This document shows, in pieces, positions 485 through 24,628 of a stretch of DNA of 28,832 nucleotides. The translations under genes were made by a program, and so were the position numbers. Each line of letters starts with the position of its first letter. Position 1 is the stretch's first letter. The DNA comes from an uncultured Candidatus Sumerlaeota bacterium. GTDB lineage: Bacteria > Sumerlaeota > Sumerlaeia > SLMS01 > CAYUNT01. The stretch covers positions 1 through 28,832 of the forward strand of contig CAYUNT010000034.1 in the NCBI GenBank assembly GCA_964446285.1, read 5' to 3'. The notes beneath the pieces are model-generated. The model had not been told where the DNA came from. It was given only the letters and a program-made list of their open reading frames with translations, and ran no database searches.

Positions 485-1378
485 TTATGAACCCGCCTTT
501 TCGCCCGGAGATGGATCGTCAGAATGCTTCGATGGGCCGAAAACATTGATGACATCAAAGGTTCCGTCGCCGCGCCGCAAGCGCACAGGCACCTCATAAC
601 CGCCAATCACCGAGTCGTGCGGAATGCGGCTGAGGTCGCCGTCGAAAATCCAGCGAACCGGTCCGCCGCTGCCTGGTTCGGGAGGCGAGAGCGCGCCAAG
701 CCCCTCTACCGCGATGGCGGGGAATCGCTGTTTTTCATCGGTGGAAAAACGGAATTGAAACGGCGGCCCGATCGACGATTTGCGCCGGAGCGGAACCAGA
801 TAGCGCGGTTTTGCGCCTTTGGCCGGAGAATTGACACCGACGACCTCGCCCGCTTCGCCGCGCTGTGCCTCGCCTCCGGCCGCATAATACGCCAGCGCTT
901 CGAGCAAGACAGCGTCGTTGCGCATCGCCGGAGCCAGGCGCAGGCCGCTGCTCGCCGCGACGCCTTCACTGCCCCCGCCTTGGCTCCCCCCCTCGCCGCC
1001 GCCTGCCGCAGTCTCGGCAAGGTCTTTGTCCATGCGCGATAAAATGCCCGCCAGAGCGGCCATTTCCTCCAGGGCTTGTGTGCGGTCGAGACTGTGGAAC
1101 GTCCGCCGGATAAACGTGAAACTGATTGCCGCGAGGATGATCACCGTCGCGCCAATTACTACATAGGTTTTCCATTCCTCGCGATTGCCGATCATGCTTC
1201 GCGTGGTGGAAATTCCCCCTTCCGTTCCGGCGGGTTTGCCCGCGCCGCCTTTGCCTTGCGGCTTTTTACCGCCCGAGGCGGTGCTGGCGGGCCGTCCGCG
1301 AGGAACCACGATCCGCGGCCGGTCTGGGGAAGACGCCTGGCGCTGGAAAAACTGCTGGGGAGGGCCTTTTCGTGACAT
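485..1378 (-). CDS. Hypothetical bitopic (type II) membrane protein. It has a Gly/Lys/Pro-rich cytoplasmic N-terminus, one TM helix, and an extracytoplasmic domain of unknown function.
   Basis: ORF 485..1498. I chose the internal ATG at 1378 (MSRKGPPQQ...) because the region upstream is low-complexity. There is a single strongly hydrophobic segment, WKTYVVIGATVIILAAISFTFI. The gene ends 26 nt before the sdaA start, which suggests an operon. No motif I can assign to a family. Confidence 0.4.
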   Translation of the reverse strand: MSRKGPPQQFFQRQASSPDRPRIVVPRGRPASTASGGKKPQGKGGAGKPAGTEGGISTTRSMIGNREEWKTYVVIGATVIILAAISFTFIRRTFHSLDRTQALEEMAALAGILSRMDKDLAETAAGGGEGGSQGGGSEGVAASSGLRLAPAMRNDAVLLEALAYYAAGGEAQRGEAGEVVGVNSPAKGAKPRYLVPLRRKSSIGPPFQFRFSTDEKQRFPAIAVEGLGALSPPEPGSGGPVRWIFDGDLSRIPHDSVIGGYEVPVRLRRGDGTFDVINVFGPSKHSDDPSPGEKAGS

Positions 1379-1543
1379 TGGAGGAACAAACCCCGAAGTC
1401 GAATGGGAATGCGGCAGAACAGTGGCGAATTCAAACGCCATACTGAACAGGAAAAATCTTACCCGGAACCTGGTGACGCTTTCCAGCCCGATTCTCAAAC
1501 GCCGATTTCTTTAGGCGTGTCCATCGGCGGGTGCGACCTTGCG

Positions 1544-2816: not shown

Positions 2817-3930
2817 ATGCTATCCGATGCCATTCAGATTCTTGCCGCGATGAAGACGAAAACCGAAGAAAATCGGAGGTATCTTTGACCTCGATAGCCG
2901 AAAATCGCGCCTTCAGGAACTTGATGCACTGACGCAGCAACCGCAATTCTGGGGTGATCAGACGGGCAGCAAGGCGGTGATGAAAGAGATTAAACGCCTG
3001 AAATCCGTGATCGGACCTTGGGATGCGCTGGCGAAAAACATCGGAGACACGTTGGAACTGGCCGAGCTCCTTAAAGAGGAAGGGACTCTGGAGGGGCCGG
3101 ATGTGGAACAGATCGAGCGGGAGGCGCGTGAGATTGAAACACGCGCGCATGATCTCGAATTCCGCTCGATGATGAGCGACGAAGCCGACATCCTCAACTG
3201 CTTCATAAACATTCACCCGGGCGCGGGCGGCACCGAGTCGCAGGATTGGTCGCAGATGCTCCTGCGCCTGTATTTGCGCTGGGCGGAGCGCCACGGCTTC
3301 GAGGTGCATGAACTCGATCTCGACGACGGCGAAGTCGCTGGGATCAAGAATGCGACAATTCATGTCATCGGGGAATATGCATATGGCTACTTGAAAGGCG
3401 AAACGGGCGTCCACCGGCTGGTGCGCATTTCGCCATTCGACGCCAATGCGCGCCGCCACACGTCGTTTTCGGCCGTGTATGTGTCGCCCGAGGTGGATGA
3501 ATCCATCGAGATCGAAGTTAACGAAAAGGACATCCGCCTGGACTCATTCCGCGCGGGCGGGAAGGGCGGCCAGAAGGTCAATAAAACCACAAGCGCCGTG
3601 CGAATCACGCACTTCCCTACAGGCATTGTGGTGCAGTGCCAGAACGAGCGCTCGTGGCATCAGAACCGCGAGATGGCCTTCAAGGTTCTCCGCTCGCGAT
3701 TGTATGAATATGAGCTAAAACGGCGCCGCGCGGAACTGGACAAACTTGAATCGCAAAAGGCCGACATCAATTTTGGCTCGCAAATCCGCAACTATGTTCT
3801 GCATCCATATCAGCTTGTGAAAGACCTGCGGACGGACGTGGAGACGTCAGACACGCAAGGCGTTCTCGACGGCGAAATCGACGAATTCATCGAGGCGCTG
3901 CTCAAGCAAGGGATGAAGTCGGTTAAGTAG
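2817..3930 (+). CDS. prfB: Peptide chain release factor 2. It is encoded in two frames joined by a programmed +1 ribosomal frameshift: 2817..2885 in frame 0, then 2887..3930.
   Basis: Frame 0 from ATG 2817 reads MLSDAIQILAAMKTKTEENRRYL and then hits TGA at 2886-2888. The +1 frame continues DLDSRKSRLQELDALTQQPQFWGDQ...SPFDANARRHTSF...GGQ...NKTTSAVRITHFPTGIVVQCQ. This is the RF2 domain organisation with the GGQ motif. The track ORF 2977..3930 is the downstream part only. Confidence 0.9.
2875..2889 (+). promoter_or_regulatory. prfB autoregulatory +1 frameshift site: internal SD-like GGAGG, then 3-nt spacer (TAT), then CTT TGA C
   Basis: The sequence GGAGGTATCTTTGAC at 2875-2889 almost matches the E. 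coli prfB frameshift cassette (AGGGGGTATCTTTGAC). The in-frame UGA is followed by C, which is the weak-termination context. Confidence 0.85.
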
Positions 3931-7000: not shown

Positions 7001-7927
7001 TTCGAGCAGCCCAATTCCCAATACTCCAAACAGCACGCCAATGGCCGCCAATAGAAGGAGGTAAGACCAGAAGGTGGTCCGGCCTTCTATGTAAATGGCC
7101 GGAGTTCTGCTGGCCATCAGCAGGAGGGCGGGCTTGTCCTCCACGTCGCGAATTACACCAAACCCGCTCACCTCATTTGGCGTTACGGGAAGGATAAGGA
7201 TCGATTCGCGCCCTTTCAGCCGGTTCAAAATTTCCTCGTCCATATTCAATGGCGGGCTGGCGAAAGGAAAACCCCGGAGCGATATCCGCATCGCCTGGCC
7301 CGCGCGCTGAACCTCATCATCGTCCACCCATCTCCCCATGACAAAAATACCCCGGGGCGGCCCCTTCTTTTTGGAGGTCAGAATCGGGCAGGCGGCTAGC
7401 ATCGCCGTCTTGTTGTGAACAGATAACAAACCAGAAAATGCGTTGTTGGCTGCCCCCTTGGAGCGCCGCAAGAGCGCGCTATGAACAGCGCGAATGATCG
7501 CTTCCTCCGCCTCTTGCGGTTCTCCTTCCCTGGTTGCGCTATCGAATTGAAGCGCTCGGACGCTTGCGAAGGATTGGTCGAAAAGTATCACGAAATTGAC
7601 ATGGAGGTCCAGAAGCGTTGCGCCTGAAAGGTTGGATTGAATAAACGTTTCATCCCGGCTTTGCAAAAATGCGTAGGTATCGTCCCAGTTGGCATAGTCC
7701 TTTGTCGTAGCCATCAGGTTTTTCTGTTCGATAGAAAAGTATTCAAATACCTGCCCTACGGCATATCGCATCTCCTGTTCTTCCAGGTTGGCGAAACTGC
7801 CCAGCAGAACTTGGCGGGAGATAAAATACAGCCCCACGCCCAGAATGGCCAGGGCCGCAACGAATATCACGAACGTTTTTCTGCGCAGACTCACAACCGG
7901 CGCCTCCGCCTGTGTCCGGTGTGCCAA
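4052..7927 (-). CDS. Membrane-bound c-di-GMP signalling protein. Order of parts: TM, periplasmic sensor domain, TM, HAMP, two GAF-like domains, PAS, GGDEF (intact GGDEF and RxxD I-site), EAL (intact EAL and DDFGSG).
   Basis: 1291-aa ORF. TM helices at about aa 18-37 and 284-304. HAMP-like segment aa 305-360. Sequence ...LLRPGDTIARPGGDEFVILLDD at aa 924-940. Sequences EALLRWRHP (aa 1061) and VVDDFGSGYSSLSYL (aa 1182). The annotated start is a TTG at 7927. A better-supported start is the GTG at 7891, which is preceded by GGAGG plus an 8-nt spacer. Confidence 0.85.
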   Translation of the reverse strand: MAHRTQAEAPVVSLRRKTFVIFVAALAILGVGLYFISRQVLLGSFANLEEQEMRYAVGQVFEYFSIEQKNLMATTKDYANWDDTYAFLQSRDETFIQSNLSGATLLDLHVNFVILFDQSFASVRALQFDSATREGEPQEAEEAIIRAVHSALLRRSKGAANNAFSGLLSVHNKTAMLAACPILTSKKKGPPRGIFVMGRWVDDDEVQRAGQAMRISLRGFPFASPPLNMDEEILNRLKGRESILILPVTPNEVSGFGVIRDVEDKPALLLMASRTPAIYIEGRTTFWSYLLLLAAIGVLFGVLGIGLLERLVLARLARLSEGLGRIARERDFSGRVEAEGSDELGQLGESINHTLQGLEEARLECEEVRTMRENDDRLRRQVPALAEFSLRTLRESGNLDDIIHQLTEMAARTIEVQRVGVWFFSDDHTRLVGRDLFDSGVKEHTHAPDLIVDSFPTYFKALESERALVASDAPNDPRTQEFSADYLIPLGIGALMDAPIRIGGRVVGVVCHEHIGPARKWTLAEQEFAGSVADLIALHIEDRDRKKAEEALRYRIQFERLITSISTRFISVPEEQLDAEIEQSLAKIGAFVQADRSYIFDILPGGESIGNTHEWCAEGIEPQKENLQDIPVKSIPWWMSQLRSGRIILIPRVPQMPAEASTEKAMLEAQGVHSLVAVPMITRGNLVGFLGFDAVRREKTWPDDVVALLKIVGEILTNALDAARADDALRESEARNRALLHALPDMMFLMSADGVFLDYHARNEEDLLMPAESFLGKNFREIFPESLAGIHALAQERALKTREMQVIEYPLRIRGKLAYFEARVVPCGQNRVLAIVRNVTDRKQAEERIVRHVFHDSLTDLPNRTLLMDRIGQCLERARGREKYQFAILLADMDRFKNVNDSLGHSAGDRLLMEIGHRLASLLRPGDTIARPGGDEFVILLDDIPGESAALRLADRIHEVLEQPFWIQERSLHVTASVGVAFGSPKEEQAEGLLRNAEIAMYRAKALGRGLSAIFDEAMHKQTIHQLELESGLRRALQGRELEMHYQPIMPLNGHNEIGLEALLRWRHPQLGLLTPGELIAIAEDTDLIVPLGTWVLRESCKQLRAWRQRLPANCPISIAINLSMRQFTDPLLVDKVQKALGEAATEPGMLWLELTESSLMKNPEYTTEVLGVLHRLGVRLVVDDFGSGYSSLSYLRQFSLDALKIDRSLILGIEQESKSMEIVRSVVSLGHNLGLRVIAEGVEEEAQLEKVRHLGCDFVQGFYFQKPAPAPEIELWINAQLQSHPKASHS
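4103..4840 (-). other. EAL (c-di-GMP phosphodiesterase) domain of the sensor protein, roughly aa 1030-1275
   Basis: Residue counting places the EAL domain here. EAL, DDFGSG, ELTE-like and EGVE motifs are all present. Confidence 0.65.
4898..5374 (-). other. GGDEF (diguanylate cyclase) domain of the sensor protein, roughly aa 852-1010
   Basis: Located by residue counting. GGDEF motif at aa 933-937 (nt about 5117-5131). The RPGD I-site ends 5 residues upstream. Confidence 0.65.
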
Positions 7928-10622: not shown

Positions 10623-11609
10623 ATGAATTTTTCGGCAATCGAGATTTGCGCTGGCGGTGGCGGCCAAGCCCTTGGTTTGGAGATGGCCGGTTTCTGCCAT
10701 GAAGCTCTTGTGGAATATGAACCACACTTCTGCGCCACGCTCCGTGCGAACCGCCCGCATTGGAATGTGCTTTTGAAGGATATAAGAGAATTTCAATGTG
10801 AGGAATATGCTGGCATTGATTTGGTGGCCGGTGGTGTGCCCTGTCCTCCGTTCAGCATCGCAGGCAAGCAGCTGGGCGCGGAAGATGACCGGGATATGTT
10901 TCCGGCGGCGCTCGACATCGTTGCGCGAATCCGCCCGCGCGCTGTTATGTTTGAGAATGTTCCCGGACTGGCGGCGGCGAAGTTTGAAGAATACCGCCAA
11001 AACCTGATGGCCCGGCTCTGCAGGCTCGGATATAGCCCCGCATGGAAAGTACTTCAGGCCGCGCACTATGGCGTCCCGCAGCTCCGCCCGCGTTTTGTGC
11101 TGGTGGCGCTCCGTACGCGCGAGGCCGAATTCTTCCGGTGGCCCGCGCCATCCCTGGCATTTCGCACAGTTGGCGAGACTCTTGTGGATTTGATGAGCGC
11201 AAACGGCTGGCCCGGAGCGGGTTATTGGGCGCGCAAGGCGGCGGGAATCGCGCCAACTCTTGTTGGCGGATCAAAGAAGCACGGCGGGCCAGACCTTGGC
11301 CCCACCCGAGCCAAGCGCCAATGGCGCGAACTGGGAGTGGATGGCATGGGCATTGCCGACAAGGCGCCGGACAAGTCGTTTCCGAAGGACGGACTGCCCC
11401 GCCTGACCCTGCGCATGGCCGCTCGAATCCAAAGCTTCCCCGATACTTGGGCTTTTATGGGCGGCAAAACGATTGCTTACCGCCAGATTGGAAACGCGTT
11501 CCCGCCGTTGCTGGCCAGCGCGATGGGTATGGCCTTGCGGCGGGCGCTTGCACACCAAATCTATACGGCTGTCGAAAAAAAGGTTTTCGCGGGAGTTAGC
11601 GAGCCATAA
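10623..11609 (+). CDS. DNA (cytosine-5)-methyltransferase, Dcm/Type II C5-MTase class
   Basis: Motif I IEICAGGGG, motif IV GVPCPPFS (PCxxFS), motif VI ENV (VMFENVPGL), and motif X QIGNAFPP near the C-terminus. 328 aa, which is the size of monospecific type II C5-MTases. Confidence 0.85.
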   Translation: MNFSAIEICAGGGGQALGLEMAGFCHEALVEYEPHFCATLRANRPHWNVLLKDIREFQCEEYAGIDLVAGGVPCPPFSIAGKQLGAEDDRDMFPAALDIVARIRPRAVMFENVPGLAAAKFEEYRQNLMARLCRLGYSPAWKVLQAAHYGVPQLRPRFVLVALRTREAEFFRWPAPSLAFRTVGETLVDLMSANGWPGAGYWARKAAGIAPTLVGGSKKHGGPDLGPTRAKRQWRELGVDGMGIADKAPDKSFPKDGLPRLTLRMAARIQSFPDTWAFMGGKTIAYRQIGNAFPPLLASAMGMALRRALAHQIYTAVEKKVFAGVSEP

Positions 11610-11630
11610 GCATGACTGTGGGGGATAACA

Positions 11631-12203
11631 ATGCAGGGAAAGAAATCCTCAAAAAGAAAAATACTGGAATTCCTGCTCGCCAACAAGGGACGCGTCATTG
11701 AAAGCCGTGAAATTCAAGAGGCATCCGGATGGGTGGCGGAATGGGCACGGCGTGTCAGAGAACTCAGGGATGAAGAAGGCTATCAAATCTTGTCACATAA
11801 GGATCGAGCTGACCTGAAACCTGGCCAGTATTTAGTTGAAACGGAAAAGCGCCGTCCATCTTTTCATCGCGATATTTCCAAAGAAACGCGAGCAGCCGTT
11901 TTGGAGAGGAACGGATACACCTGCCAGATGTGCGGGGTGGCGGCAGGGGATCCGGACCCGTATCATTCGGGCCGTTCGATACGTCTGACAATGGGGCATA
12001 TCATCGACAAGTCCAAAGGCGGAGATGATTCCCTGTCGAATTTGCGCGCGGTTTGCACAAACTGCAATGAAGGGCTGCAAAACGCGGCCCTTCCCAAGCC
12101 AGACAGAATCTGGCTCCTGGCTCAGGTCCGCCGCGCGACGATTGACGATCAGAAGGCCGTCCTCGACTGGCTTCTTCGCAAATTTGGCGGCGGGCAAAAG
12201 TAA
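11631..12203 (+). CDS. HNH-family nuclease with an N-terminal winged-helix-like DNA-binding domain. Candidate restriction endonuclease partner of the adjacent MTase.
   Basis: C-terminal ...ISKETRAAVLERNGYTCQMCG...TMGHIIDKSKGGDDSLSNLRAVCTNCN. This shows two CxxC zinc ligand pairs, the catalytic His in GHIID, and the Asn in SNLRA, which together form the classic HNH bba-Me zinc finger. The N-terminal 85 aa (KRKILEFLLANKGRVIESREIQEASG...) is wH-like. Lowest-GC gene in the window, judged by eye. Confidence 0.8.
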   Translation: MQGKKSSKRKILEFLLANKGRVIESREIQEASGWVAEWARRVRELRDEEGYQILSHKDRADLKPGQYLVETEKRRPSFHRDISKETRAAVLERNGYTCQMCGVAAGDPDPYHSGRSIRLTMGHIIDKSKGGDDSLSNLRAVCTNCNEGLQNAALPKPDRIWLLAQVRRATIDDQKAVLDWLLRKFGGGQK

Positions 12204-12357
12204 AGCCGCTCCATCACCTGCGTGATTTTGTTCGATTCGCATGGCTGATCTTGGTCCGCTTGCCAACCTTCCGCCCGTCATGCTAGTCAGTAAGGGAGTG
12301 GGGAGCGGAAAGGGAAGGAATACGCCAAGGCGTTGTCTTTGGAGGGATTATAGAGGC

Positions 12358-13674
12358 ATGAAGGTCTTCAACAACAGGTGGATGCGCAATTCTCTCAGGT
12401 CCTCTTTTGCTCCAAGGCGGCTGGCACAAGGGGCAATCGTTGCCGCTATGTTCGCTGCATCTTTGCCGGCTTCCGCGCTGGGACAGCAAGCGATTGGGGG
12501 GCAATCCACAATCTCCGCGGCCGCCCCGTCCTCTTCCGCCGCCCCGTCCTCTTCCGCCGCGCCTTCGACCGCCGCTTCTTCCGCCGCCGTTTCCGCCGCC
12601 TCCTCCTCCGTTGCCCCCGCGGCTTCGAATGCCGCTTCCAATCCCTCCGAAGATGCCGCTGCTGCCTCCGCCAATCCGCGCGAAGTGCTTTTGCAAAACG
12701 GCATCAATTCCGATACGGCGGCTATGCTGGCGTTTCTCGAACGCGGCTACAGCGAAGCCATGCTCGCGCGCGGACTCCCCGCCGAACCCCGCACCCGCAC
12801 GCAATTGATCAACTACATCCTCCAGATTTTTGGAGAAACCCGCCCGCCCGAGGTTGTCGAACCGGTCATCCGCCTTGCGCGGCGCGAATTCCCCGCCGGT
12901 GTGCGCCAGGTGATCCGCATGGACACGGACGGACTGGATGCGACAATGATTATGCAGGAGCGCGAGCGCCTCGAACGCGTCGTGGTTTTCAACGCTGTTG
13001 TGGCCTTGGGCTGGATTGCCGACTCGCGCGCCATCCCCGCCATTCGCGAGGTGATGCAAAAGGAATCCGCCAGCGGCTTCACCACGCAGGGTGCCATCGC
13101 GCTGGCCATGATGGGCGATTCGGGCGGGTTGCCGGGCGTTGTGGAACTCCTGCGCAAGAGCTCGCCCGACGAACAGGCCGGGGCCGCGCGCGCGCTTTAT
13201 ACGATCACGGGCCGCTATTATCCATTTTCGCCTTCGATTTCCAAGGCCCGTGCCCGCGCCACGCTCAAGGACCTCGATGAGTGGTGGAAAATCGCCGGCG
13301 TGGATTACAAACCGATTCCGGCGGAGGTTCGCGCTCGCCGCGCCGCTCCATATCCGCCGCCCCAGCCCGCGCCCGATCCAAACAGCATTCGCGCTCTGCT
13401 CGTGGCGGCGGCGGACATCGAAGGGGATTATGCCACATCATTCCAGGCGCGCCAGTTCATCGTCGAGCGCGGCGGCCAGGCGCTCCCCGAACTTGAAACC
13501 GTGGCGCTCGATCCGATGGAGGATTTGCTGATTCGCCGGACGGCCATGCGCCTTCACGTGTATATGGCGCGCCAGGATTCGAAGAAACTCTTGCGCAAAC
13601 TCAAAAGCGACGAGAATCAGCCAGTGGCCGATCTTGCGCGCTCACTTCTGAAGAGCATCGAAGAAAATCGGTAG
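12358..13674 (+). CDS. Secreted HEAT/PBS-lyase-like repeat protein with an N-terminal signal peptide and a Ser/Ala-rich low-complexity linker
   Basis: ATG 12358 (alternative ATG 12382) gives MKVFNNRWMRNSLRSSFAPRRLAQGAIVAAMFAASLPASALGQQ, a signal peptide. An AAPSSSAAPSSSAAPSTAASSAAVSAASSS linker follows. The C-terminal half has HEAT-like repeats (VVALGWIADSRAIPAIREVM..., GAIALAMMGDSGGLPGVVELL..., EQAGAARALYTI). Confidence 0.65.
   Translation: MKVFNNRWMRNSLRSSFAPRRLAQGAIVAAMFAASLPASALGQQAIGGQSTISAAAPSSSAAPSSSAAPSTAASSAAVSAASSSVAPAASNAASNPSEDAAAASANPREVLLQNGINSDTAAMLAFLERGYSEAMLARGLPAEPRTRTQLINYILQIFGETRPPEVVEPVIRLARREFPAGVRQVIRMDTDGLDATMIMQERERLERVVVFNAVVALGWIADSRAIPAIREVMQKESASGFTTQGAIALAMMGDSGGLPGVVELLRKSSPDEQAGAARALYTITGRYYPFSPSISKARARATLKDLDEWWKIAGVDYKPIPAEVRARRAAPYPPPQPAPDPNSIRALLVAAADIEGDYATSFQARQFIVERGGQALPELETVALDPMEDLLIRRTAMRLHVYMARQDSKKLLRKLKSDENQPVADLARSLLKSIEENR
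12520..12555 (+). repeat. Perfect 18-nt tandem duplication (gccgccccgtcctcttcc, 2 copies) encoding AAPSSS twice in the HEAT-protein linker
   Basis: Positions 12520-12537 and 12538-12555 are identical. A partial third copy (gccgc) follows. Confidence 0.6.
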
Positions 13675-14596: not shown

Positions 14597-17500
14597 TCAT
14601 GGATAGCAATTCCATGTAAGGGAAGCCTGGGTTGGGTGTTCGGGATACAGGGATATTCCCCAACCTCCTCCTGGCAGCGGAGAGCGGAACAGCGGACCGG
14701 ATCCAACGCTGTTGGAAGAAACGATCTGGCGATCGCCCGAAAGCGGATCAATGCCAATGACCGTATTGTTGCCTGCTGCATATAGAGTGCCGTCATATCC
14801 GATTTCGACATCGCTGCTGGAAGGCAGGGCAGGCCCGCTCCCACGACCGCCTGTGAATGCTCCCGAGACCAGCGTCACAGCGCCCGTCAGCGGATTCACT
14901 TGATAAAGAGCCGGATAATCACCAGCAAGCAGATAGGCCAGGAGCATGTTATCCCAGTTAATCGCCAGCCCGGAAAGATTATAAAGCGAGGCGATCAGGG
15001 TGCGGTTTCCGGTTGCAGGATCCACAAGCATAGGTCCCTTGCTTGAGGCCACGTAGATCGAACCGGTTGACTGAACGGCCGCATCAAGACCGGAAATGGG
15101 TGTTGGACCGGTTCCAATGATGTCAGAGGAAATGATTTGCCGGTATCCCGTTGCCGGATTTAGGAGAATAACCTCCGACAGGCTCGTGCTGGGGAAGACA
15201 AGATTGCCGTTTTCGTCCAAATCAGCGTGCCTGGCGTTCTTCCATTCCGGTCCCAACCCGTCGTTGGTGGCCGCGATGATGGTCCGATTACCGGTTCGAA
15301 TATCCACGCGGAAAATTCGACCGGTTTCGATCGTCGGAGCATCGAAGAGATACAAAGTATCCGGGGCCTTCCAAATCAGCCCGGCGGTGCAAAAGAAAGG
15401 AGGTCCTTCTCCGCGCCGCCAATCCGAAACCACGGCTCGGTTTCCGGTCACGCGGTCCACGCATAGAATACCGAGTCCATCGCTTATGCAGATCGAATTG
15501 CCCCATTGGTTTTTGTTAATCACGTTGATATGACAGTGATTTCCTGTAAGCGACTGGCTATCGGCGGTTACGGTGAAGGAGAATATATCCTGAGCGTTCG
15601 AGAAGCCCGCATGGCGATAGGAGATGCGCCCCATATTAATATCCTCCTGGGTAAACGTGTTATCCAGGGTGGTCATTGCCGTTCCGTTTCGCATAAGGGT
15701 TCCGTGCAAAGGCAGCGCGACAATCGAATACTGGATGGCAGAAGGCGGCGTGTCACTATCGAGAACATGCAGCTGCCGTTGCGTAAGGGCGGCGGATTCG
15801 CCGCGAAGGACAGTCAGGTCTTCATTTTCCGTCAGGGTCGGGGCCGCCAGTCCTCCGTTAATCCACACCTGGCATCCGCTTCCATACGGCTCGGCAATAA
15901 ACAGGTCGGGAGAGAGGTCACCATTCAAATCGCCGCATGCAATGTCGATGCCCCCTGCAACCGGCGGAAGGAACAGGGAGAAATTCCCCGATCCGTCGTT
16001 GAGCCATATCGTGCTTCGCGCAGAGGACGAATAGGTAACGGCAATCAGGTCCTCATCGTCATCGCCATCGATGTCCTTGAAGAGAACATTTTCGCTTTCC
16101 ACGGAACTGCCCAGGAACTGGCTCGATTCGGAAAAGTTGCCGGTTCCGTCATTGATCCACAGGAAAACCGGCTTTTGGAAAGCCGCGCCGCCCAGGGCAA
16201 CGTCCAAATCACCATCGCCATCCACGTCGCCCATGGCCACTGCTGTGGCGCTATAACTTCCCAGCACCTGGGCGCCGGCAGAGAAGTTGCCGGAGCCGTC
16301 GTTTATCCATACATCATTGTGACCAGACGAGGTGGCTGCGACGGCATCCATATCCCCGTCGCCATCTACGTCGCCAAGGGCCACAGCGTTGCTGACTGAA
16401 TTCCCGAGGAGCTGGTGGACAGAAAACACTCCATATCCGTTGTTGAAATACACGATATCCGGGCGCGAGGTACCAGGACCGATATTGGCCACATAAGCAT
16501 CCAGGTCGCCGTCATTGTCCAGGTCTCCGAGCGCCCCGTCGGACCCGCTCTGATTGCCCAGGTATTGACCGGAATCTGCAAAATGGCCTGTGCCGTCGTT
16601 GAAATAGACTCGATTGCCCAGCCCGAATCCGTTGATTTCAAGGGCATCGGGGAAGCCATCGCCGTTCAGATCGCCCAGCACAACCCGGTTCGCGGCATTG
16701 GATCCGATCGCCTGGCCGCTATCGGAAAAGAATCCGTTCCCGTCGTTAAGCAGAACCCGATTGGGAGGATCATAGCCGCCAGCCAGGCAAGACAGGAAGG
16801 CATCCAAATCTCCATCCCCATCAAGATCCGCCAGAGAAACGCCCGAGACGTTGGATGTGCTCAGGCGTTGCCCGCTGTCTGCAAATCCAGAAAATGGCCC
16901 GGCGCTTGAACCGATCACTTGCACCGGCAGGAGACGCATGACCTGCTGAGTTTCTGAACTGGAAATTTCGCGGGCCGATGCCGTTACGCGCAGACAAAAA
17001 TCATAAGGATTGCCGAAGGGAGGCTTGATGGCCAGCCCCGCCAGGCTCGATGAAGGGATTTCATACGCGCCAGGCCCCCCCGGCGTGCCTGCGTTGTGTT
17101 GGGCTCCGGAAGGTATGCCATCGATCGTAATCGTCAGTTGCTCCGAGCCATCCGTATCCTGCAATGAGGCCGTGATAGACAGCGGAATAAACGTATCCAT
17201 CGCACCCGAGGCGGGAGAAACCGCGAGAAGCGGGGCGTCCGTTACCGGGCTGATCTGGACAGAAACTGTTGCGGATGCGCTTGGGCTGTTTCCGTCAAAG
17301 GCATGATAAGTGAATTGAATCGTTCCCGAGTAGTTCGCGGCTGGCACGAGGTTGAATGCCCCGTCACTGTTCAATTGAAAGGACCCAACCGGAGAGGGCG
17401 GCGTATCCAGGATGGCTTGAATGGAAGAATTATCCGGATCGTGATCATTGCTCAAAACCCCTGGAGCGGCAACGCTGAGAGGCTGATCTTCCGTACCTGA

Positions 17501-19498
17501 ATAGGAGTCGGCCTCCGCCACCGGCGGGTCATTGATGGCCTGGACTACGACAGCTCCCGACGCGGTCCCCTCCTGGGTTCCAGCCAGCAAATGAGACAAT
17601 ATGCAGCTAATGGTTCTTGTGTTCTGGTTGGGGTTATTGGTTGTGTGCTCGTAGGTCAGATGGGTCATCACGCTTTGCACCGCTTCCAGAGATGCATTAT
17701 CGGACGTAAAGTCTATTGTCAGCGGAGTGCTATAGTTGCCTTCAGAGAAGGTTCCGATTTCGACCCCGCCGTAAGTAATGACGCTCCCAGAGATGCCCAA
17801 CTGGCCCGGCCCGGCGCCTTCATTGCGAATTGCCAGGCTGTCGCCGGTTTGGCCGTTGGTTTGAAGCGAAACCGTCAATCGCCGGTTCCTGAGGTTTGTT
17901 TCATCCCCGTCCGTTATGGTTGCGCTCAGGAACAGCGTGACAGCACTGGAATCCTCGACATACGTGGGATTTGCCGCAACGGCGGAAAAGGCAGTTGGCT
18001 CATCATCCAGGGCGAGGACGAGTTTCTTCGTATTGTAATCGACGTCGATGATGTCCAGGTCGCCGTCGCCGTCGAAATCGGCCATGGCCGCCACATAGTT
18101 GGTGCGGTTGGGCAGGTAGGAACCCTGGAAGACCAGGTTTCCCGCGCCATCATTTCTCCACGCGGTAAGCGGAGTGTTCGTGAACGCATTGATAATCAGA
18201 ACGTCTGGATAGCCGTCGCTGTTGAAATCGTCCGACATATATTCAAAAGGCTGGTAATTACTGGGAATGATGCTGCTGTCGGATTGCGTGAAGGCGCCGG
18301 CCCCGTCGCCCTGATACACCCGCATGTTGAGATTGGGAGAGTTAATGACTCCCATGTAAATATCGGCGTTTCCGTCCTGCTTGGCATCCGCGGCGGCAAA
18401 ACGCTGGACGATATTGTAATAGCTTCGGGATAGCTGGGTAAGCGTCCCATCCCCGTTATTGGTAAAAACAAAGAGATCGGTGCCGCCTTGAGCCAGGACA
18501 TCCAGTTTGCCGTCGTTGTTCACATCCTCGAAAAGCGCGTATTGGCCATTGCTGGAAAGGCTCTTGGATGTGAGGAGTGAAAACGAGTTCGATCCATTGT
18601 TGCGATAAACATAAACAGCATAGCTGGACGATCCCGTAAAAGCAAAGTCCAGGGCGCCGTCTCCATCGAAATCCCCAACGCTCAATTCTTTGGGTTCTGC
18701 CGTCGTGGTGGAACTGCTCAGCAGCGAGAAGACCCCCGAGCCGTTGTTCCGGTAAATATCCACTCGATTCGGGCTTTTTCCCGCAACCATCACATCCAGA
18801 TTGCCGTCGCGGTCAAAGTCAGCCGCTTCCAGCCGGCCCGATACGCTTCCGAGATTGAAACTGCTCACATTCTCGGTAAATGTCCGATCCCCGTTGTTGT
18901 GATAGAAAGCCAGTTTGTAAGTCAAGTTGCCAAGGATGGCCACAAAATCCATCTGACCATCGTGATCGAAATCACCCGGAATCAATTTAACAGGATCCGC
19001 ATAAGCCGAGAAATTGCGGTATTCTTTCCAATCCATGCGGCCGGCTTCGGAAGCCGTTCCGATTCGATACTTATACTGGTAAGGAATGAGCGGAGTATCC
19101 AAATGGTCTTTTACGCCAGCCAGCAAAGCGACGGTGACCACTTCTCCGTAGTTGAAATTCCTGTCCGGGTGAAGTGTCACAGTTTTTCCCGCCGCGTTGT
19201 AAAGGAATGAACTTGAAGATACGACGCCTGTCAAACTTCCATGCACGAGAATGTTCGTGTTGTTCAGCGTCGGAGTGCTCATATCATCGCTGAAAGTAAT
19301 CGCGATATCCGCACTCGGCGAAACGTGATTGGCCATTCGTGACGGAACGTGAGAGACAACAGAAACAGCAGCCCCTGCCAGGGGGATGCAGGCCAGCAGG
19401 ACAACGGCCAGGCCGGCGAAGATTTCGCGGGTAAAACGGCGGCGATTTGCACACTTTCCAATCACTTTTCTTGCTCCCAAATGAATTCTTTTCCTCAC
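14597..19498 (-). CDS. Giant secreted or surface protein. Order of parts: N-terminal signal/anchor, Ig-like domain, FG-GAP-repeat beta-propeller, VCBS/cadherin-like domain, second FG-GAP propeller, cadherin-like domain, C-terminal 6-bladed beta-propeller.
   Basis: 1633-aa ORF. More than 15 FG-GAP/Ca-binding repeats ([46 protein letters not shown]...). A cadherin-like VCBS block ([39 protein letters not shown]...[14 protein letters not shown]). The C-terminal region carries a motif repeated six times: (V/I)DPxTGNRxxI(S/A). The start is a GTG at 19498. An alternative GTG 33 nt downstream is preceded by GGGAG. Confidence 0.85.
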   Translation of the reverse strand: [1633 protein letters not shown]

Positions 19499-21615: not shown

Positions 21616-21731
21616 GGAACAACGATCTAAATAAGCGGAATTGAATGCGAGGGCGGCGGACCGCGTATCCGGCGGAACGTGCCGCGCGAATCACACCGAA
21701 CGCCGCCCCTGCGAATGGCCTCATGGCCGAA

Positions 21732-22538
21732 TTACTTGGCGCGGTATTCGATCGCGGCGGCTTCCTCAAATACCTGGAAGGTAAAGGATTCCGCGATATA
21801 GAGCGAAACCGAATCGCCCGCCGCGGCCGAGAATCCGATGGCGAAATCCTGGCCCACGGTGAGTTCGTAGTTGCCTTCGCGCCGCGAGAAAAGCAGCGCC
21901 CCGGCCACGGCCGGACTCCAGCGAATCTCGCCTCCGTGCAGAAGCGATGTGATGCGCTTTGCCAGCGGATAGCCCTGTTCGACGCCGCCCATCACCACCT
22001 GATACGCGCTCGAACCGAGCACGAGCTCGAACGGGCCGCCCAAACCGGACTTCTGAATGGCAATGATGCCCGATTCGACCGCCTCGGGATACCCATTCGC
22101 CGTTTTGGGAAGCGCGAGAGGCGCGTGGGGCGTCGCCTTGGCCATGCCCTGGATTCCGCCCTTTTCGTAGCCGAAATAGATCGCGGCTTCCTCGAAACAC
22201 GCGATCTTGGCGGCGGCCTTTTTAAGCGGGTCCAGATTGGGGGTTTTATAGCCGCGGCTGATCGCATCGAGTTCCGCGACACTCAGCGCGAAGGGAACCT
22301 GCACCTCGATCAGCGGCAGAACATCGCGCGCTCCGCAGAGCAGCTCTTTGTCTGCGCCGCTTGGCTGTAATTTGACTGTGCCCAAATTGACCGCGGCAAA
22401 TTGCGCGCCGTGCGGACCGCTAAAATTCACGAGGCTGCGCGCCGAGAGGTTTCCCTTCAGCGTGCGCCGCGCCTGTTCGTCGATTTCCTTCCACGCTTCA
22501 TCTGCGATGGGGGCGAGGGAACGTTTGAGTCTATCCAT
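21732..22538 (-). CDS. Family 1 encapsulin nanocompartment shell protein (HK97-fold, linocin M18-like)
   Basis: Start at internal ATG 22538 gives MDRLKRSLAPIADEAWKEIDEQARRTLKGNLSARSLVNF.GPHG. The protein is colinear with T. maritima encapsulin throughout (PLIEV...ELD...RG, GPFELVLG, YPLAKR...LHGGEIRWSP, ELTVGQDFAIGF, SFTFQV). SD GGAGA plus an 8-nt spacer precedes it. Confidence 0.9.
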   Translation of the reverse strand: MDRLKRSLAPIADEAWKEIDEQARRTLKGNLSARSLVNFSGPHGAQFAAVNLGTVKLQPSGADKELLCGARDVLPLIEVQVPFALSVAELDAISRGYKTPNLDPLKKAAAKIACFEEAAIYFGYEKGGIQGMAKATPHAPLALPKTANGYPEAVESGIIAIQKSGLGGPFELVLGSSAYQVVMGGVEQGYPLAKRITSLLHGGEIRWSPAVAGALLFSRREGNYELTVGQDFAIGFSAAAGDSVSLYIAESFTFQVFEEAAAIEYRAK

Positions 22539-22616
22539 GGTGAGAATCTCCTTTGTATGTGCTTTCTGCGGCATTGTCTTTCGCGAAATTGTTTTGCGGG
22601 AGCGATTCTATCCGAA

Positions 22617-22982
22617 CTACTTCATGTCCTTGATGCCCAGGGAAGGGGATGCGCCGCCTTCGGCCTGCGCGCCATCCGCCGCCGCCTCTTCGCCTGCTGC
22701 CTCCGGATGCAAATGGATGGGGCCGGACTTGAAAAGATAGGCTCGAAGCTCTTCATCGAATTTCGGAAGCCTGCGCCGCAGCCATTCGAGGGCCATCGCG
22801 GCGTGTTCGATTTCCTCATCGCGATGATGTTCGAGGATGGCGTGGAGGTCAGCATCCTTTGTGACGTCCATGCGCTGATGATACCAATCGACTGCTTCCA
22901 GTTCCTCGATCAGCGTCGCCAGTGCGCGGTGAACGTCTTTTGTGTCTTCCGAGAGTCCTGATTCATGGTAAGTTGTGCTCAT
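22617..22982 (-). CDS. Encapsulated ferritin-like cargo protein (EncFtn) with a C-terminal encapsulin targeting peptide
   Basis: ...LIEELEAVDWYHQRMDVTKDADLHAILEHHRDEEIEHAAMALEWLRRR... is the EncFtn ferroxidase signature with its E/ExxH ligands. An Ala/Gly/Glu-rich linker and a C-terminal ...GGASPSLGIKDMK resembling SLGI-type family-1 targeting peptides follow. It lies 78 nt upstream of the shell gene. SD AAGGAGG plus a 9-nt spacer precedes it. Confidence 0.85.
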   Translation of the reverse strand: MSTTYHESGLSEDTKDVHRALATLIEELEAVDWYHQRMDVTKDADLHAILEHHRDEEIEHAAMALEWLRRRLPKFDEELRAYLFKSGPIHLHPEAAGEEAAADGAQAEGGASPSLGIKDMK

Positions 22983-23263
22983 AATGCAACGCCTCCTTGC
23001 CGCGTCGTATTGGCCAGTTTGAGGACGGCGCAGGATGAACTCAAGAGGAACCCTCGCCGCCGTATCATTTCCAGGTTGCCTGGCGGTTGCCTCTCGGCAT
23101 TTGTCGGCTTCGCCTTGACTGCTGGGGGCGTATGCATTGTCAGTTGATGGGAACCAGCGCCCAGCGACGCGGGCCTGATTTTCCCCCGAACGACCACGGG
23201 AGGATTTTTGCGGCTCTTTTCACTGCATTTGCATTTCGCCCCAGATTCCACAAGGCCCACGAA

Positions 23264-24628
23264 ATGAAAGCCCCCACCTACGTTCTCATCAATTACGGCT
23301 GCCAGATGAACGAGCACGACTCGGAAATCATGGAGGGACTGCTCGTGTCGCGCGGCTGGGTGCGGGCAGGAGCAAATGGGACTGAGGACGCGGGGGGACG
23401 CGGCGCTTCGTCGGAAGATCGCGCCGATCTTTATGTCCTGAACACATGCTCCGTGCGCGAAGGGGCGGAGAACCGCGCGCTCGGGCGTCTCGAATCGCTT
23501 CGCAACATCAAGCGCCGCTGTCCATCGACTGTCATCGTGTTGTGCGGATGCATCGCGCAGGAATATAGTGCCCGCCTGCTCGAACGTTACGACCATCTCG
23601 ACCTCGTGATTGGCACGCGCGACTACGTCAAACTGCCCGACCTGGTTGAGTTGCGGCGCAACGGCGGCGAACGCATGGCCGTCATCGACGACATCGACAA
23701 GCCGTTTTCGGTCAACGTGGTTCCAGTGCGCCAGAGCGCGCTCAAGGCCTATGTGACGATCATGTATGGGTGCGACAACCTGTGCGCTTTTTGCATCGTG
23801 CCGCAGACGCGCGGACATGAGTGGAGCCGCCCGCTTGCGGACATCGTGGCCGAAGCGCGTGCGCTCGCCGCGGGCGGATACCGCGAAATCATGCTGCTTG
23901 GCCAGAATGTGAATTCCTACCGCGATCCGGACGGGCGCGATTTCGCCGATGTGCTCTATGCGCTCAACGAAATCGACGGTCTTTGGCGCATCCGTTACAC
24001 GACATCGAACCCGAAGGATTGCAGCGACCGCCACATCCGCGCCGTGGCCGAGTGCGCTAAAGTATGCGAAAATCTGCATTTGCCCGTGCAGTCCGGCAGC
24101 AACTCCGTTCTGGCGCGCATGAGGCGTTCCTACACGCGCGAGCGATACCTCGAACAGGTGGCAATTTACCGCGAGGGGAATCCCATTTCGAGCCTGACGA
24201 CAGACCTGATTGTTGGGTTTTGTGGCGAGTCGGACGAGGAATTTGCCGATACGCTCGATCTGGCCGAGCGCGTGCGCTGGGATTCGGCGTTCATGTTTGC
24301 CTATTCGCCGCGCCCCGGAACCTATAGCGCCACTCACTTGCCGGACGATGTGCCGCACAAGGTGAAACTCGATCGCCTGGCGCGGTTGATCCGGCGGCAA
24401 GAGGAAATCGGCCTTGAACTCAACCGCGCGGAAGTGGGCCGCGTCCACGAGGTGCTTGTGGAGGGTGCGGCGCGGCGCGGACGCGGCTGCATGATGGGCC
24501 GCACGCGCACGGACAAAGTTGTGGTTTTTTCCGGCGGCGATTCGCTAGCGGGCCAACTCGTTCGCGTTAAAATCACTGAAGGCCAGGCGCATACGCTGTT
24601 TGGGGAAGTTATCGGGAACGGTTCATAA
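23264..24628 (+). CDS. miaB: tRNA-i6A37 methylthiotransferase MiaB (radical SAM MTTase with TRAM domain)
   Basis: N-terminal MTTase cysteines (YVLINYGCQMNEHDSE, LNTCSVRE). The radical-SAM motif CDNLCAFC. A C-terminal TRAM-like region (GRVHEVLVEG...VRVKITEG). Start ATG 23264 is inside track ORF 23087..24628. Confidence 0.9.
   Translation: MKAPTYVLINYGCQMNEHDSEIMEGLLVSRGWVRAGANGTEDAGGRGASSEDRADLYVLNTCSVREGAENRALGRLESLRNIKRRCPSTVIVLCGCIAQEYSARLLERYDHLDLVIGTRDYVKLPDLVELRRNGGERMAVIDDIDKPFSVNVVPVRQSALKAYVTIMYGCDNLCAFCIVPQTRGHEWSRPLADIVAEARALAAGGYREIMLLGQNVNSYRDPDGRDFADVLYALNEIDGLWRIRYTTSNPKDCSDRHIRAVAECAKVCENLHLPVQSGSNSVLARMRRSYTRERYLEQVAIYREGNPISSLTTDLIVGFCGESDEEFADTLDLAERVRWDSAFMFAYSPRPGTYSATHLPDDVPHKVKLDRLARLIRRQEEIGLELNRAEVGRVHEVLVEGAARRGRGCMMGRTRTDKVVVFSGGDSLAGQLVRVKITEGQAHTLFGEVIGNGS

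What the first reader, a model, noticed from the sequence alone, without database searches (positions are those of the whole stretch)
21732..22982. Two-gene encapsulin nanocompartment operon: EncFtn ferroxidase cargo with a C-terminal targeting peptide, followed by a family-1 encapsulin shell
Both proteins are recognisable by eye. The cargo has the EncFtn metal-binding signature (EELEAVDWY...HHRDEEIEHAAM). It has a flexible Ala/Gly/Glu linker and a short C-terminal SPSLGIKDMK tail that resembles SLGI-type cargo-loading peptides, though it is somewhat degenerate. The shell protein aligns with T. maritima encapsulin from the N-terminus MDRLKRS... through SFTFQV. The operon sits between nucleotide-sugar genes and miaB, divergent from miaB. 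It is a protein-bounded iron-storage and oxidative-stress compartment in what looks like an uncultured-type high-GC lineage.
Basis: partly seen in the sequence, partly recalled or inferred. Interest (0 to 1): 0.55.

Follow-up and report, generated by a model that had tools for sequence, protein, structure and literature searches.

The report
Ordinary EncFtn–encapsulin iron-storage operon
Two neighbouring genes encode a small iron-oxidising protein and the virus-like protein shell that packages it, a well-known bacterial iron-storage nanocompartment, here in an uncultured bacterium and with only a slightly unusual packaging tag.

Summary
On the minus strand, 22982..22617 encodes a 121-aa encapsulated ferritin (EncFtn): PF22277 E 4e-37, and TIGR04535 130.8 bits against a cut-off of 125. 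All ferroxidase-centre and iron-entry residues are intact. The protein ends in a Gly/Ala/Glu linker and the tail SPSLGIKDMK. After a 78-nt gap, 22538..21732 encodes a 268-aa family-1 encapsulin shell. It scores 251.9 bits against the NF041155 equivalog (cut-off 100) and E 5e-66 to the Haliangium ochraceum shell. The AlphaFold model (pLDDT 92.5) matches T=1 shells at TM 0.93-0.96. The 280-aa ORF in the finding starts 12 codons too early.

The cargo-then-shell pair recurs in 64 of 66 related loci, with unrelated neighbours. The miaB and nucleotide-sugar genes are therefore bystanders. This is a new member of a very well-described kind.

Two details are mildly unusual. A Lys replaces the near-invariant Gly after LGI in the tag; T. 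maritima has Arg there. The shell has Asn at position 38, where relatives have Asp, a tag-contacting residue. The host is uncultured and possibly related to Sumerlaeota. Assembly, cargo loading and iron storage are inferred, not shown. Interest is low.

The parts
22617..22982 (-). EncFtn (encapsulated ferritin-like ferroxidase cargo) CDS, 121 aa plus stop
   Evidence: ORF. PF22277 E 4.3e-37. TIGR04535 130.8 bits against cut-off 125. PDB 7oe2/5n5f/5da5 E 1e-27 to 4e-31. 51% identical to H. ochraceum EncFtn. N-terminus MSTTYHE matches the homologue consensus MSTxYHE.
22992..22998 (-). Shine-Dalgarno AAGGAGG, 9 nt upstream of the EncFtn ATG
   Evidence: Read directly from the sequence.
22803..22907 (-). 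Region encoding the metal sites. Entry site: E26/E29/W33. Ferroxidase centre: E27, E57, H60, plus Y34. Outer HxxxEExEH motif: H52-H60.
   Evidence: The residues map to R. rubrum E31/E34/W38, E32/E62/H65 and Y39 through the PDB alignment offset. They are invariant or near-invariant in 120 homologues.
22650..22715 (-). Low-complexity Ala/Gly/Glu linker (about residues 90-111)
   Evidence: Sequence HLHPEAAGEEAAADGAQAEGGA. Homologues have variable Gly/Glu/Ala-rich linkers at the same place. Flexible linkers before targeting peptides are described in PMC10960027.
22620..22649 (-). C-terminal cargo-loading (targeting) peptide SPSLGIKDMK
   Evidence: The LGI core aligns with H. ochraceum 117-GSLGIGSLR-125 and T. 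maritima GGDLGIRK. It is the only ORF tail in the window with such a motif.
22539..22616 (-). 78-nt spacer between cargo and shell genes; no terminator and no significant structure
   Evidence: Terminator scan. Fold z-score -0.41. This is the third-longest spacer among 74 related pairs, whose median is 5 nt.
22548..22553 (-). Shine-Dalgarno AAGGAG, 9 nt upstream of the shell ATG at 22538
   Evidence: Read directly from the sequence.
21732..22538 (-). Family-1 encapsulin shell protein CDS, 268 aa plus stop
   Evidence: PF04454 E 5.8e-75. NF041155 equivalog 251.9 bits against cut-off 100. PDB 7odw E 4.7e-66. AF2 pLDDT 92.5. Foldseek TM 0.93-0.96 to T=1 shells. JGI gene call of 268 aa.
21647..21712 (-). 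GC-rich imperfect hairpin just after the shell stop codon. It is a possible but unproven transcript end, with no U-run directly after it.
   Evidence: The MFE fold contains GGGGCGGCG...CGCCGCCCU, but the z-score is only -1.12. The terminator scan did not call it.
22983..23263 (.). 281-nt divergent intergenic region between EncFtn and miaB. It presumably holds both promoters; none was recognised.
   Evidence: No sigma-70-like site. Only weak repeats. No Rfam family.

Best explanation
This is a classical (family 1) encapsulin iron-storage nanocompartment. The proposed mechanism has five steps.

1. The two genes are transcribed together.
2. The 121-aa EncFtn forms the annular decamer typical of its family. 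Each di-iron ferroxidase centre lies at a dimer interface (E27, E57, H60, plus Y34).
3. The flexible Ala/Gly/Glu linker presents the C-terminal tag SPSLGIKDMK. Leu115, Ile117 and Met120 dock into the hydrophobic groove on the luminal P-domain face of the shell protomer. The terminal Lys121 contacts the polar rim of that groove.
4. The 268-aa HK97-fold shell protein self-assembles around the bound cargo. The most likely product is a 60-subunit T=1 icosahedron of about 24 nm holding a few EncFtn decamers.
5. Fe(II) enters through the shell pores, is oxidised by EncFtn, and is deposited as ferric mineral in the lumen. This stores iron and limits Fenton chemistry.

Shown here: family membership of both proteins, conservation of all catalytic residues, the predicted fold, the presence of a tag, and the conserved gene pairing. 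Inferred by homology and not shown here: co-transcription, decamer formation, tag binding, T number, assembly and iron mineralisation.
For: - Curated-threshold HMM hits for both proteins.
- Strong sequence matches to solved EncFtn and shell structures, best to the H. ochraceum Enc:EncFtn complex.
- The ferroxidase-centre, entry-site and HxxxEExEH residues are all present, and invariant or near-invariant across 120 homologues. Their roles are documented.
- The AF2 model has pLDDT 92.5. Its one confidence dip (residues 181-190) lies in the stretch corresponding by position to the dynamic five-fold pore loop of H. ochraceum (residues 180-196).
- Foldseek gives TM 0.93-0.96 and rmsd 1.5-1.9 A to T=1 shells, against TM 0.72-0.76 to T=3/T=4 shells.
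- The tag keeps the L-G-I core, a third hydrophobic residue and a C-terminal basic residue. These are the features shown to be essential in K. pneumoniae and seen in the T. maritima and H. ochraceum structures.
- The shell keeps tag-site residues R34 and D231.
- EncFtn lies directly upstream of the shell in 64 of 66 related loci, with varying neighbours.
- Both genes have strong ribosome-binding sites and no terminator between them.
- There are no phage genes in the neighbourhood.
Against: - Nothing contradicts the reading; the caveats concern function.
- The Gly after LGI is replaced by Lys, whereas 64 of 74 paired relatives have Gly. A Gly-to-Ala change at that position abolished loading in the K. 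pneumoniae DyP system.
- The shell has Asn38 where 113 of 120 homologues have Asp. [quoted passage not shown]
- The first Gly of GxLGIxxL is Pro.
- The 78-nt spacer is unusually long for this gene pair.
- No promoter or regulator site was recognised.
- No experiment exists for this locus.
Confidence: 0.93

Rival explanations
1. The shell and cargo are genuine, but the divergent tag (LGIK, Pro at -3 from Leu) and the D38N change in the shell tag site weaken or abolish loading. EncFtn would then be poorly encapsulated, or the shell would mainly load another cargo encoded elsewhere in the genome.
For: Lys after LGI is unique among 74 paired tails. G343A at that position abolishes loading in K. 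pneumoniae, and Asp38 salt-bridges the tag Lys there. Asn38 occurs in only 3 of 120 homologues.
Against: The native, structurally resolved T. maritima tag GGDLGIRK has Arg at the same position and loads cargo. Relatives with LGIR exist and keep the paired shell gene. The three hydrophobic residues and the terminal basic residue are intact. No other ORF in the window carries a tag. The gene pair is intact in several independent metagenome assemblies at 99.2-99.97% identity.
Confidence: 0.05
2. The 'shell' is a major capsid protein of a degraded HK97-like prophage, or a secreted 'linocin M18' bacteriocin or antigen as old annotations say, and is not a nanocompartment.
For: Encapsulins share the HK97 fold with phage capsids. 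PF04454 still carries the historical bacteriocin name.
Against: The protein scores 251.9 bits on the curated family-1 encapsulin equivalog model. All top structural matches are encapsulins at TM above 0.9. No terminase, portal, protease or integrase gene lies within the 28.8-kb window. A tagged EncFtn gene lies directly upstream, as in 64 of 66 relatives. The bacteriocin annotation is described as false in PMC8346489.
Confidence: 0.01
3. The unit is larger than two genes. The downstream epimerase/dehydratase and nucleotidyltransferase, or the divergent miaB, would be functionally coupled accessory components of the compartment.
For: The downstream genes are on the same strand, with a 116-nt gap and no canonical terminator. 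MiaB is an Fe-S enzyme, so a link to iron is conceivable.
Against: Three relatives have completely different neighbours: cytochrome bd oxidase and phosphatase; trehalose synthesis and amylase; FeoAB, a TonB receptor and AhpC. A GC-rich hairpin follows the shell stop codon.
Confidence: 0.04

Closest known systems
Haliangium ochraceum Enc:EncFtn nanocompartment (PDB 7ODW, 7OE2, 7OEU; EncFtn 5N5F; Ross et al. 2022, PMC8791618)
   Same: Best sequence match for both proteins: shell E 4.7e-66 with 42% identity and TM 0.94; EncFtn E 4e-31 with 51% identity. It shares the two-gene order, the same ferroxidase and entry-site residues, the linker-plus-C-terminal-tag design and the LGI core. The H. ochraceum compartment has an icosahedral shell holding four EncFtn decamers, and its shell is the best sequence match to the window shell, which otherwise matches the short (about 265-aa) encapsulin protomers best.
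   Different: The tag is PSLGIKDMK-COOH against GSLGIGSLR. That is Gly to Pro, Gly to Lys, Ser to Asp, Leu to Met and Arg to Lys, and the window protein ends right at the basic residue. The shell has Asn38 instead of Asp38. The cargo-shell spacer is 78 nt. The host is an uncultured bacterium, not a myxobacterium.
Thermotoga maritima encapsulin / Flp (PDB 3DKT, 7KQ5; tag GGDLGIRK)
   Same: A family-1 shell (E 2e-46, 35% identity, TM 0.89-0.90) with an EncFtn-type ferritin-like cargo. The tag has a basic residue (Arg) directly after LGI, as the window has Lys, and a Lys at the C-terminus.
   Different: The T. maritima tag is shorter: two residues after Ile, with no third hydrophobic residue. It also forms an intra-peptide Asp-Arg salt bridge. 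The window tag has Ser rather than Asp before Leu, so that bridge cannot form in the same way.
Rhodospirillum rubrum EncFtn (Rru_A0973; PDB 5DA5 and variants)
   Same: E 7.6e-27. The residues shown by mutagenesis to form the ferroxidase centre (E32, E62, H65) and the entry site (E31, E34, W38) are all conserved, as E27, E57, H60 and E26, E29, W33.
   Different: Only sequence divergence and the tag. No functional difference is predicted.
Klebsiella pneumoniae DyP encapsulin (PDB 8U50; Jones et al. 2024, PMC10960027)
   Same: Shell E 1.5e-59, TM 0.95. The tag-binding residues Arg34 and Asp229 are conserved as R34 and D231. The tag logic is the same: three hydrophobic residues plus a basic residue.
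   Different: The cargo is a DyP peroxidase, not EncFtn. Asp38 is Asn in the window shell. The Gly343 equivalent, which is intolerant to Ala in K. pneumoniae, is Lys in the window tag.

Membership tests
Family 1 (classical) encapsulin shell | Shell protein matches the Linocin_M18 / encap_f1 profile above the curated threshold | tested here: met
   PF04454 252.2 bits against 24.3, covering profile positions 1-253 of 253. NF041155 equivalog 251.9 bits against 100, covering 1-260 of 261.
Family 1 (classical) encapsulin shell | HK97 fold (A-domain, P-domain, E-loop) of about 265 aa, without fused or extra domains | tested here: met
   AF2 model with pLDDT 92.5 and pTM 0.88. Foldseek TM 0.93-0.96 and rmsd 1.5-1.9 A over the full length to solved encapsulins. 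This is a predicted structure, not a solved one.
Family 1 (classical) encapsulin shell | Primary cargo gene directly upstream, carrying a C-terminal targeting peptide | tested here: met
   EncFtn ends 78 nt upstream of the shell start and has an LGI-type tail. The same arrangement occurs in 64 of 66 related loci.
Family 1 (classical) encapsulin shell | Neighbourhood free of phage morphogenesis genes | tested here: met
   Pfam content of the neighbours across the 28.8-kb window shows no terminase, portal, protease or integrase.
Family 1 (classical) encapsulin shell | Conserved luminal tag-binding site (K. pneumoniae Arg34, Asp38, Asp229, Ile230 equivalents) | tested here: inconclusive
   R34 and D231 are invariant and present. 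F232 is a common variant (36 of 120). Position 38 is Asn, where 113 of 120 have Asp.
Family 1 (classical) encapsulin shell | Self-assembly into an icosahedral shell (T=1 expected) and selective cargo encapsulation | not testable with these tools
   T=1 is inferred only from the much closer sequence and structural similarity to T=1 shells than to T=3/T=4 shells.
EncFtn (encapsulated ferritin, PF22277 / TIGR04535) | Profile match above the curated threshold | tested here: met
   PF22277 126.2 bits against 27. TIGR04535 130.8 bits against 125, a narrow pass. The EncB-family models are below their cut-offs (61 against 90; 20 against 210), so it is not an EncB-type cargo.
EncFtn (encapsulated ferritin, PF22277 / TIGR04535) | Ferroxidase-centre ligands Glu32, Glu62 and His65, with nearby Tyr39 (R. 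rubrum numbering) | tested here: met
   E27, E57, H60 and Y34 are present and invariant in 120 homologues.
EncFtn (encapsulated ferritin, PF22277 / TIGR04535) | Entry-site triad Glu31/Glu34/Trp38 and outer HxxxEExEH motif | tested here: met
   E26, E29 and W33 are present. H52-H53-R54-D55-E56-E57-I58-E59-H60 fits HxxxEExEH.
EncFtn (encapsulated ferritin, PF22277 / TIGR04535) | C-terminal localisation sequence with the core GxLGIxxL | tested here: inconclusive
   PSLGIKDM keeps L, G and I. The first Gly is Pro and the last Leu is Met; Met is common in relatives. The residue after Ile is Lys, whereas Gly occurs in 64 of 74 and Arg in T. maritima.
EncFtn (encapsulated ferritin, PF22277 / TIGR04535) | Annular D5 decamer with ferroxidase activity that depends on the shell for iron storage | not testable with these tools
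   Inferred from 51% identity to H. ochraceum EncFtn and matches to R. rubrum EncFtn.

The most novel reading that the evidence does not exclude
The window's pair may be a naturally co-adapted variant of the tag-pocket interface. The tag has Lys instead of the near-invariant Gly after LGI and ends exactly at the basic residue, so its free carboxylate sits at the pocket rim. The shell has Asn instead of Asp at position 38. All three Asn38 shells found pair with cargo tails ending at hydrophobic-[K/R]-COOH, against 13 of 67 Asp38 shells. If real, this would be a small, naturally orthogonal loading pair useful for encapsulin engineering.
Probability: 0.12. Interest if true: 0.3.

Novelty: new member of a known kind. 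Interest (0 to 1): 0.15.

Why it matters
It matters little beyond annotation. EncFtn-encapsulin systems are structurally and biochemically well characterised, and thousands are catalogued: 2,383 family-1 operons in 2021, and about 7,900 EncFtn homologues in the search done here.

The locus gives correct names to two genes that public sources leave unnamed. It places an iron-storage compartment in an uncultured lineage, possibly related to Sumerlaeota. It also offers one natural example of a targeting peptide with Lys after LGI, paired with an Asn38 shell. That example could interest people engineering orthogonal cargo tags.

Tried and rejected
1. **Identifying the organism.** I scanned GTDB species representatives with MiaB. 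No close genome was found; the best hits were 47-50% identical Bacillota, because the scan depends on exact peptide patterns. The large protein search did better: unnamed relatives at 70%, and named relatives at 50-60% that are almost all Sumerlaeota. This is a single-protein hint, not a placement.

2. **Cluster look-up for source names.** Both proteins are singletons with no name.

3. **An apparent variant locus (L004) with a 320-aa 'shell' lacking Pfam hits.** This is a scaffold gap of Ns that causes a frame change. It is an assembly artefact.

4. **Promoter, terminator, Rfam and repeat scans of the flanks.** No sigma-70-like promoter, no canonical terminator and no RNA family were found, only weak repeats. 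The hairpin after the shell gene is not significant (z -1.12).

5. **Second cargo in the window.** No other ORF tail carries an LGI-type motif. Two out-of-frame chance matches were ignored.

6. **Co-variation between shell residue 38 and the cargo tail.** Asn38 pairs with a tail ending four residues after Ile in 3 of 3 cases, against 13 of 67 for Asp38 (Fisher p = 0.01). However, n = 3, relatedness is uncorrected, and Asp38 shells also accept such tails. This is suggestive only.

7. **F232 in the tag site.** I considered it unusual at first, but it occurs in 36 of 120 homologues.

8. **Prophage capsid and bacteriocin readings.** Both were rejected (see rival explanations).
Full report
**Observation.** Reading the sequence shows AAGGAGG 9 nt upstream of the first ATG. 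It also shows AAGGAG 9 nt upstream of an internal ATG at 22538 (MDRLKRS...). All PDB alignments start at that Met (query residue 13 = chain residue 1), and JGI gene calls on near-identical contigs give 268 aa. The shell CDS is therefore 22538..21732, and the two genes are separated by 78 nt.

**Cargo.** The 121-aa protein matches Pfam EncFtn-like (PF22277, E 4.3e-37, 126 bits against 27). It also passes NCBIfam TIGR04535 'encapsulin-associated ferritin-like protein', narrowly (130.8 bits against 125). The EncB models are below their cut-offs. Among solved structures it matches:
- H. ochraceum EncFtn (E 4e-31; 51% identity);
- a 140-aa 'encapsulated ferritin-like protein' (33bf);
- Nitrosomonas NE0167;
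- R. rubrum Rru_A0973.

Using the alignment offset to R. rubrum, the residues map as follows:
- ferroxidase-centre ligands Glu32/Glu62/His65 map to E27/E57/H60;
- Tyr39 maps to Y34;
- the entry-site triad Glu31/Glu34/Trp38 maps to E26/E29/W33;
- residues 52-60 (HHRDEEIEH) fit the bacterial HxxxEExEH motif.

The roles of these residues come from mutagenesis and structures described in 10.1101/785121 and PMC11202242. All are invariant or nearly so in the 120 closest homologues. After the helical core comes an Ala/Gly/Glu linker and then the tail SPSLGIKDMK.

**Targeting peptide.** Structurally resolved tags of ferroxidase cargos are T. maritima GGDLGIRK and H. ochraceum GSLGIGSLR. The core motif is stated as GxLGIxxL (PMC8791618; PMC10960027; PMC7925596). 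Aligned to H. ochraceum, the window tail PSLGIKDMK keeps S, L, G and I, and has conservative Leu-to-Met and Arg-to-Lys changes. It differs by Gly to Pro, Gly to Lys and Ser to Asp.

In K. pneumoniae the three hydrophobic residues and the following Lys are essential, and Ala at the Gly after Ile abolishes loading. The window keeps the hydrophobics (L115, I117, M120) and the basic residue (K121), but has Lys at that Gly. Among 74 cargo tails paired with related shells, the residue after LxI is Gly in 64, Ala in 5, Arg in 2 and Lys only in the window. Among the 120 closest EncFtn homologues, four have Arg there. Because the native T. maritima tag has Arg at this position and loads cargo, I read the tag as atypical but probably functional. 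No other ORF in the window ends in such a motif.

**Shell.** The 268-aa protein matches PF04454 end to end (E 5.8e-75). It also matches the NCBIfam equivalog 'family 1 encapsulin nanocompartment shell protein' (251.9 bits against 100). PDB matches:
- H. ochraceum 7ODW, E 4.7e-66;
- E. coli and K. pneumoniae DyP shells, about 1e-59;
- mycobacterial Cfp29, about 1e-49;
- T. maritima 3DKT, 2.3e-46;
- M. xanthus EncA (T=3), only about 1e-4.

An AlphaFold2 model built on 42 homologues has mean pLDDT 92.5 and pTM 0.88. Its only dip (75) is at residues 181-190. This corresponds by position to the five-fold pore loop found to be dynamic in H. ochraceum (residues 180-196). Foldseek against the PDB gives TM 0.93-0.96 and rmsd 1.5-1.9 A to T=1 encapsulins. 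To T=3/T=4 shells it gives TM 0.72-0.76 at 16-20% identity. A T=1, 60-subunit shell is therefore the most likely assembly, by inference.

The nearest shell homologue in 5.8 billion proteins is only 57% identical, against 70% for the cargo. This is a moderately divergent member of the family.

**Tag-binding site.** K. pneumoniae residues Arg34, Asp38, Asp229 and Ile230 contribute to tag binding. In the window shell, R34 and D231 are present and invariant among 120 homologues. F232 is a common variant (36 of 120). Position 38 is Asn, where 113 of 120 homologues have Asp; Asn occurs in 3, Gly in 2 and Glu in 2.

I retrieved the partner cargo genes of the other non-Asp shells. I also used 80 further metagenome loci to pair shells with cargo tails. 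All three Asn38 shells pair with tails that end exactly four residues after the Ile (...hydrophobic-[K/R]-COOH), against 13 of 67 Asp38 shells (Fisher p = 0.01). With n = 3 and no correction for relatedness, this is a hint of co-adaptation and nothing more.

**Unit and context.** EncFtn lies directly upstream of the shell in 64 of 66 related loci that have room upstream. The median spacer is 5 nt; the window's 78 nt is the third longest. In three relatives the neighbours are quite different: cytochrome bd oxidase and a phosphatase; trehalose synthesis and an amylase; FeoAB, a TonB-dependent receptor and AhpC. The miaB gene (23264..24628, +, divergent across 281 nt) and the epimerase and nucleotidyltransferase genes downstream on the same strand are therefore bystanders.

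There is no terminator or significant structure between the two genes. A GC-rich hairpin follows the shell stop codon but has no U-run and a z-score of -1.12, so the 3' end of the transcript is undetermined. No promoter-like site, regulator-like repeat or Rfam family was found in the flanks. No phage genes occur in the window.

**Origin.** The window is 99.9% or more identical to three JGI metagenome contigs, including Ga0255812_10932036 (31 kb). Shorter contigs from three further samples are 98.9-99.9% identical. Both proteins are unnamed singletons at 90% clustering. A scan of GTDB species representatives with MiaB found nothing closer than 50%. In the large protein search, unnamed MiaB relatives reach 70%, and the named ones at 50-60% are nearly all Sumerlaeota MAGs. 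GC is 52-65% per kb. 'Uncultured lineage' is supported. 'High GC' is moderate. The Sumerlaeota affinity rests on a single gene.

**Comparison with what is known.** This is the canonical Flp/EncFtn operon type of family-1 (classical) encapsulins. A cargo gene with a C-terminal tag lies directly upstream of the shell gene, as described for 2,383 family-1 operons across 31 phyla. Flp-type cargos are the second most common class (PMC8346489). Mechanistically it should behave like the H. ochraceum and T. maritima systems: EncFtn decamers tethered inside a T=1 shell, oxidising Fe(II) that is then stored as mineral in the lumen.

**Verdict.** The locus is a new member of a known kind and of low interest. 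The only points worth a specialist's glance are the Lys-for-Gly tag variant and the Asn38 shell residue.

Noticed in passing
window 2817-3930 (+): The release factor 2 gene (prfB) carries the classical programmed +1 frameshift site. A short frame from the ATG at 2817 runs into CGG AGG TAT CTT TGA C (2874-2889), with an SD-like GGAGG just upstream. The PCRF and RF-1 domains continue in the +1 frame (ORF 2977..3930). This is a known autoregulatory feature.
   Followed up: partly
window 10623-12203 (+): A C-5 cytosine DNA methyltransferase (328 aa, PF00145 E 1e-59) is followed 21 nt later by a 190-aa HNH endonuclease. This is probably a small type II restriction-modification pair.
   Followed up: no
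window 4052-7927 (-): A 1291-aa multidomain c-di-GMP signalling protein with CHASE4, HAMP, GAF, PAS, GGDEF and EAL domains.
   Followed up: no
window 14597-19498 (-): A very large (about 1622-1633 aa) predicted surface protein with Big_5, FG-GAP, cadherin-like and Big_9 repeats. It lies just downstream of the nucleotide-sugar genes.
   Followed up: no
window 22425-22427 (-), shell residue 38; loci L091, L092: The shell has Asn38 where 113 of 120 homologues have Asp, a tag-contacting residue in K. pneumoniae. The only other Asn38 shells found (L091, L092) also pair with cargo tails that end right at the basic residue (SLGIGSMR, DLGIGPLR).
   Followed up: partly
L004 3732-4694: A contig from another sample appears to encode a 320-aa frameshifted 'shell' and a 418-aa MiaB. 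The cause in the shell gene is a run of Ns (a scaffold gap), not biology.
   Followed up: yes
P0193 (390 aa): A bacterial-metagenome homologue has EncFtn (PF22277) fused to the shell (PF04454) in one polypeptide and is 51% identical to the window shell. Such Flp-fusion encapsulins are described as archaeal in PMC8346489, so this could be a bacterial fusion or a missed stop or gene-call merge.
   Followed up: no
window 485-1498 (-) and 12241-13674 (+): A 337-aa ORF with no Pfam hit, and a 477-aa protein with only weak HEAT-repeat matches. Function is unknown.
   Followed up: no
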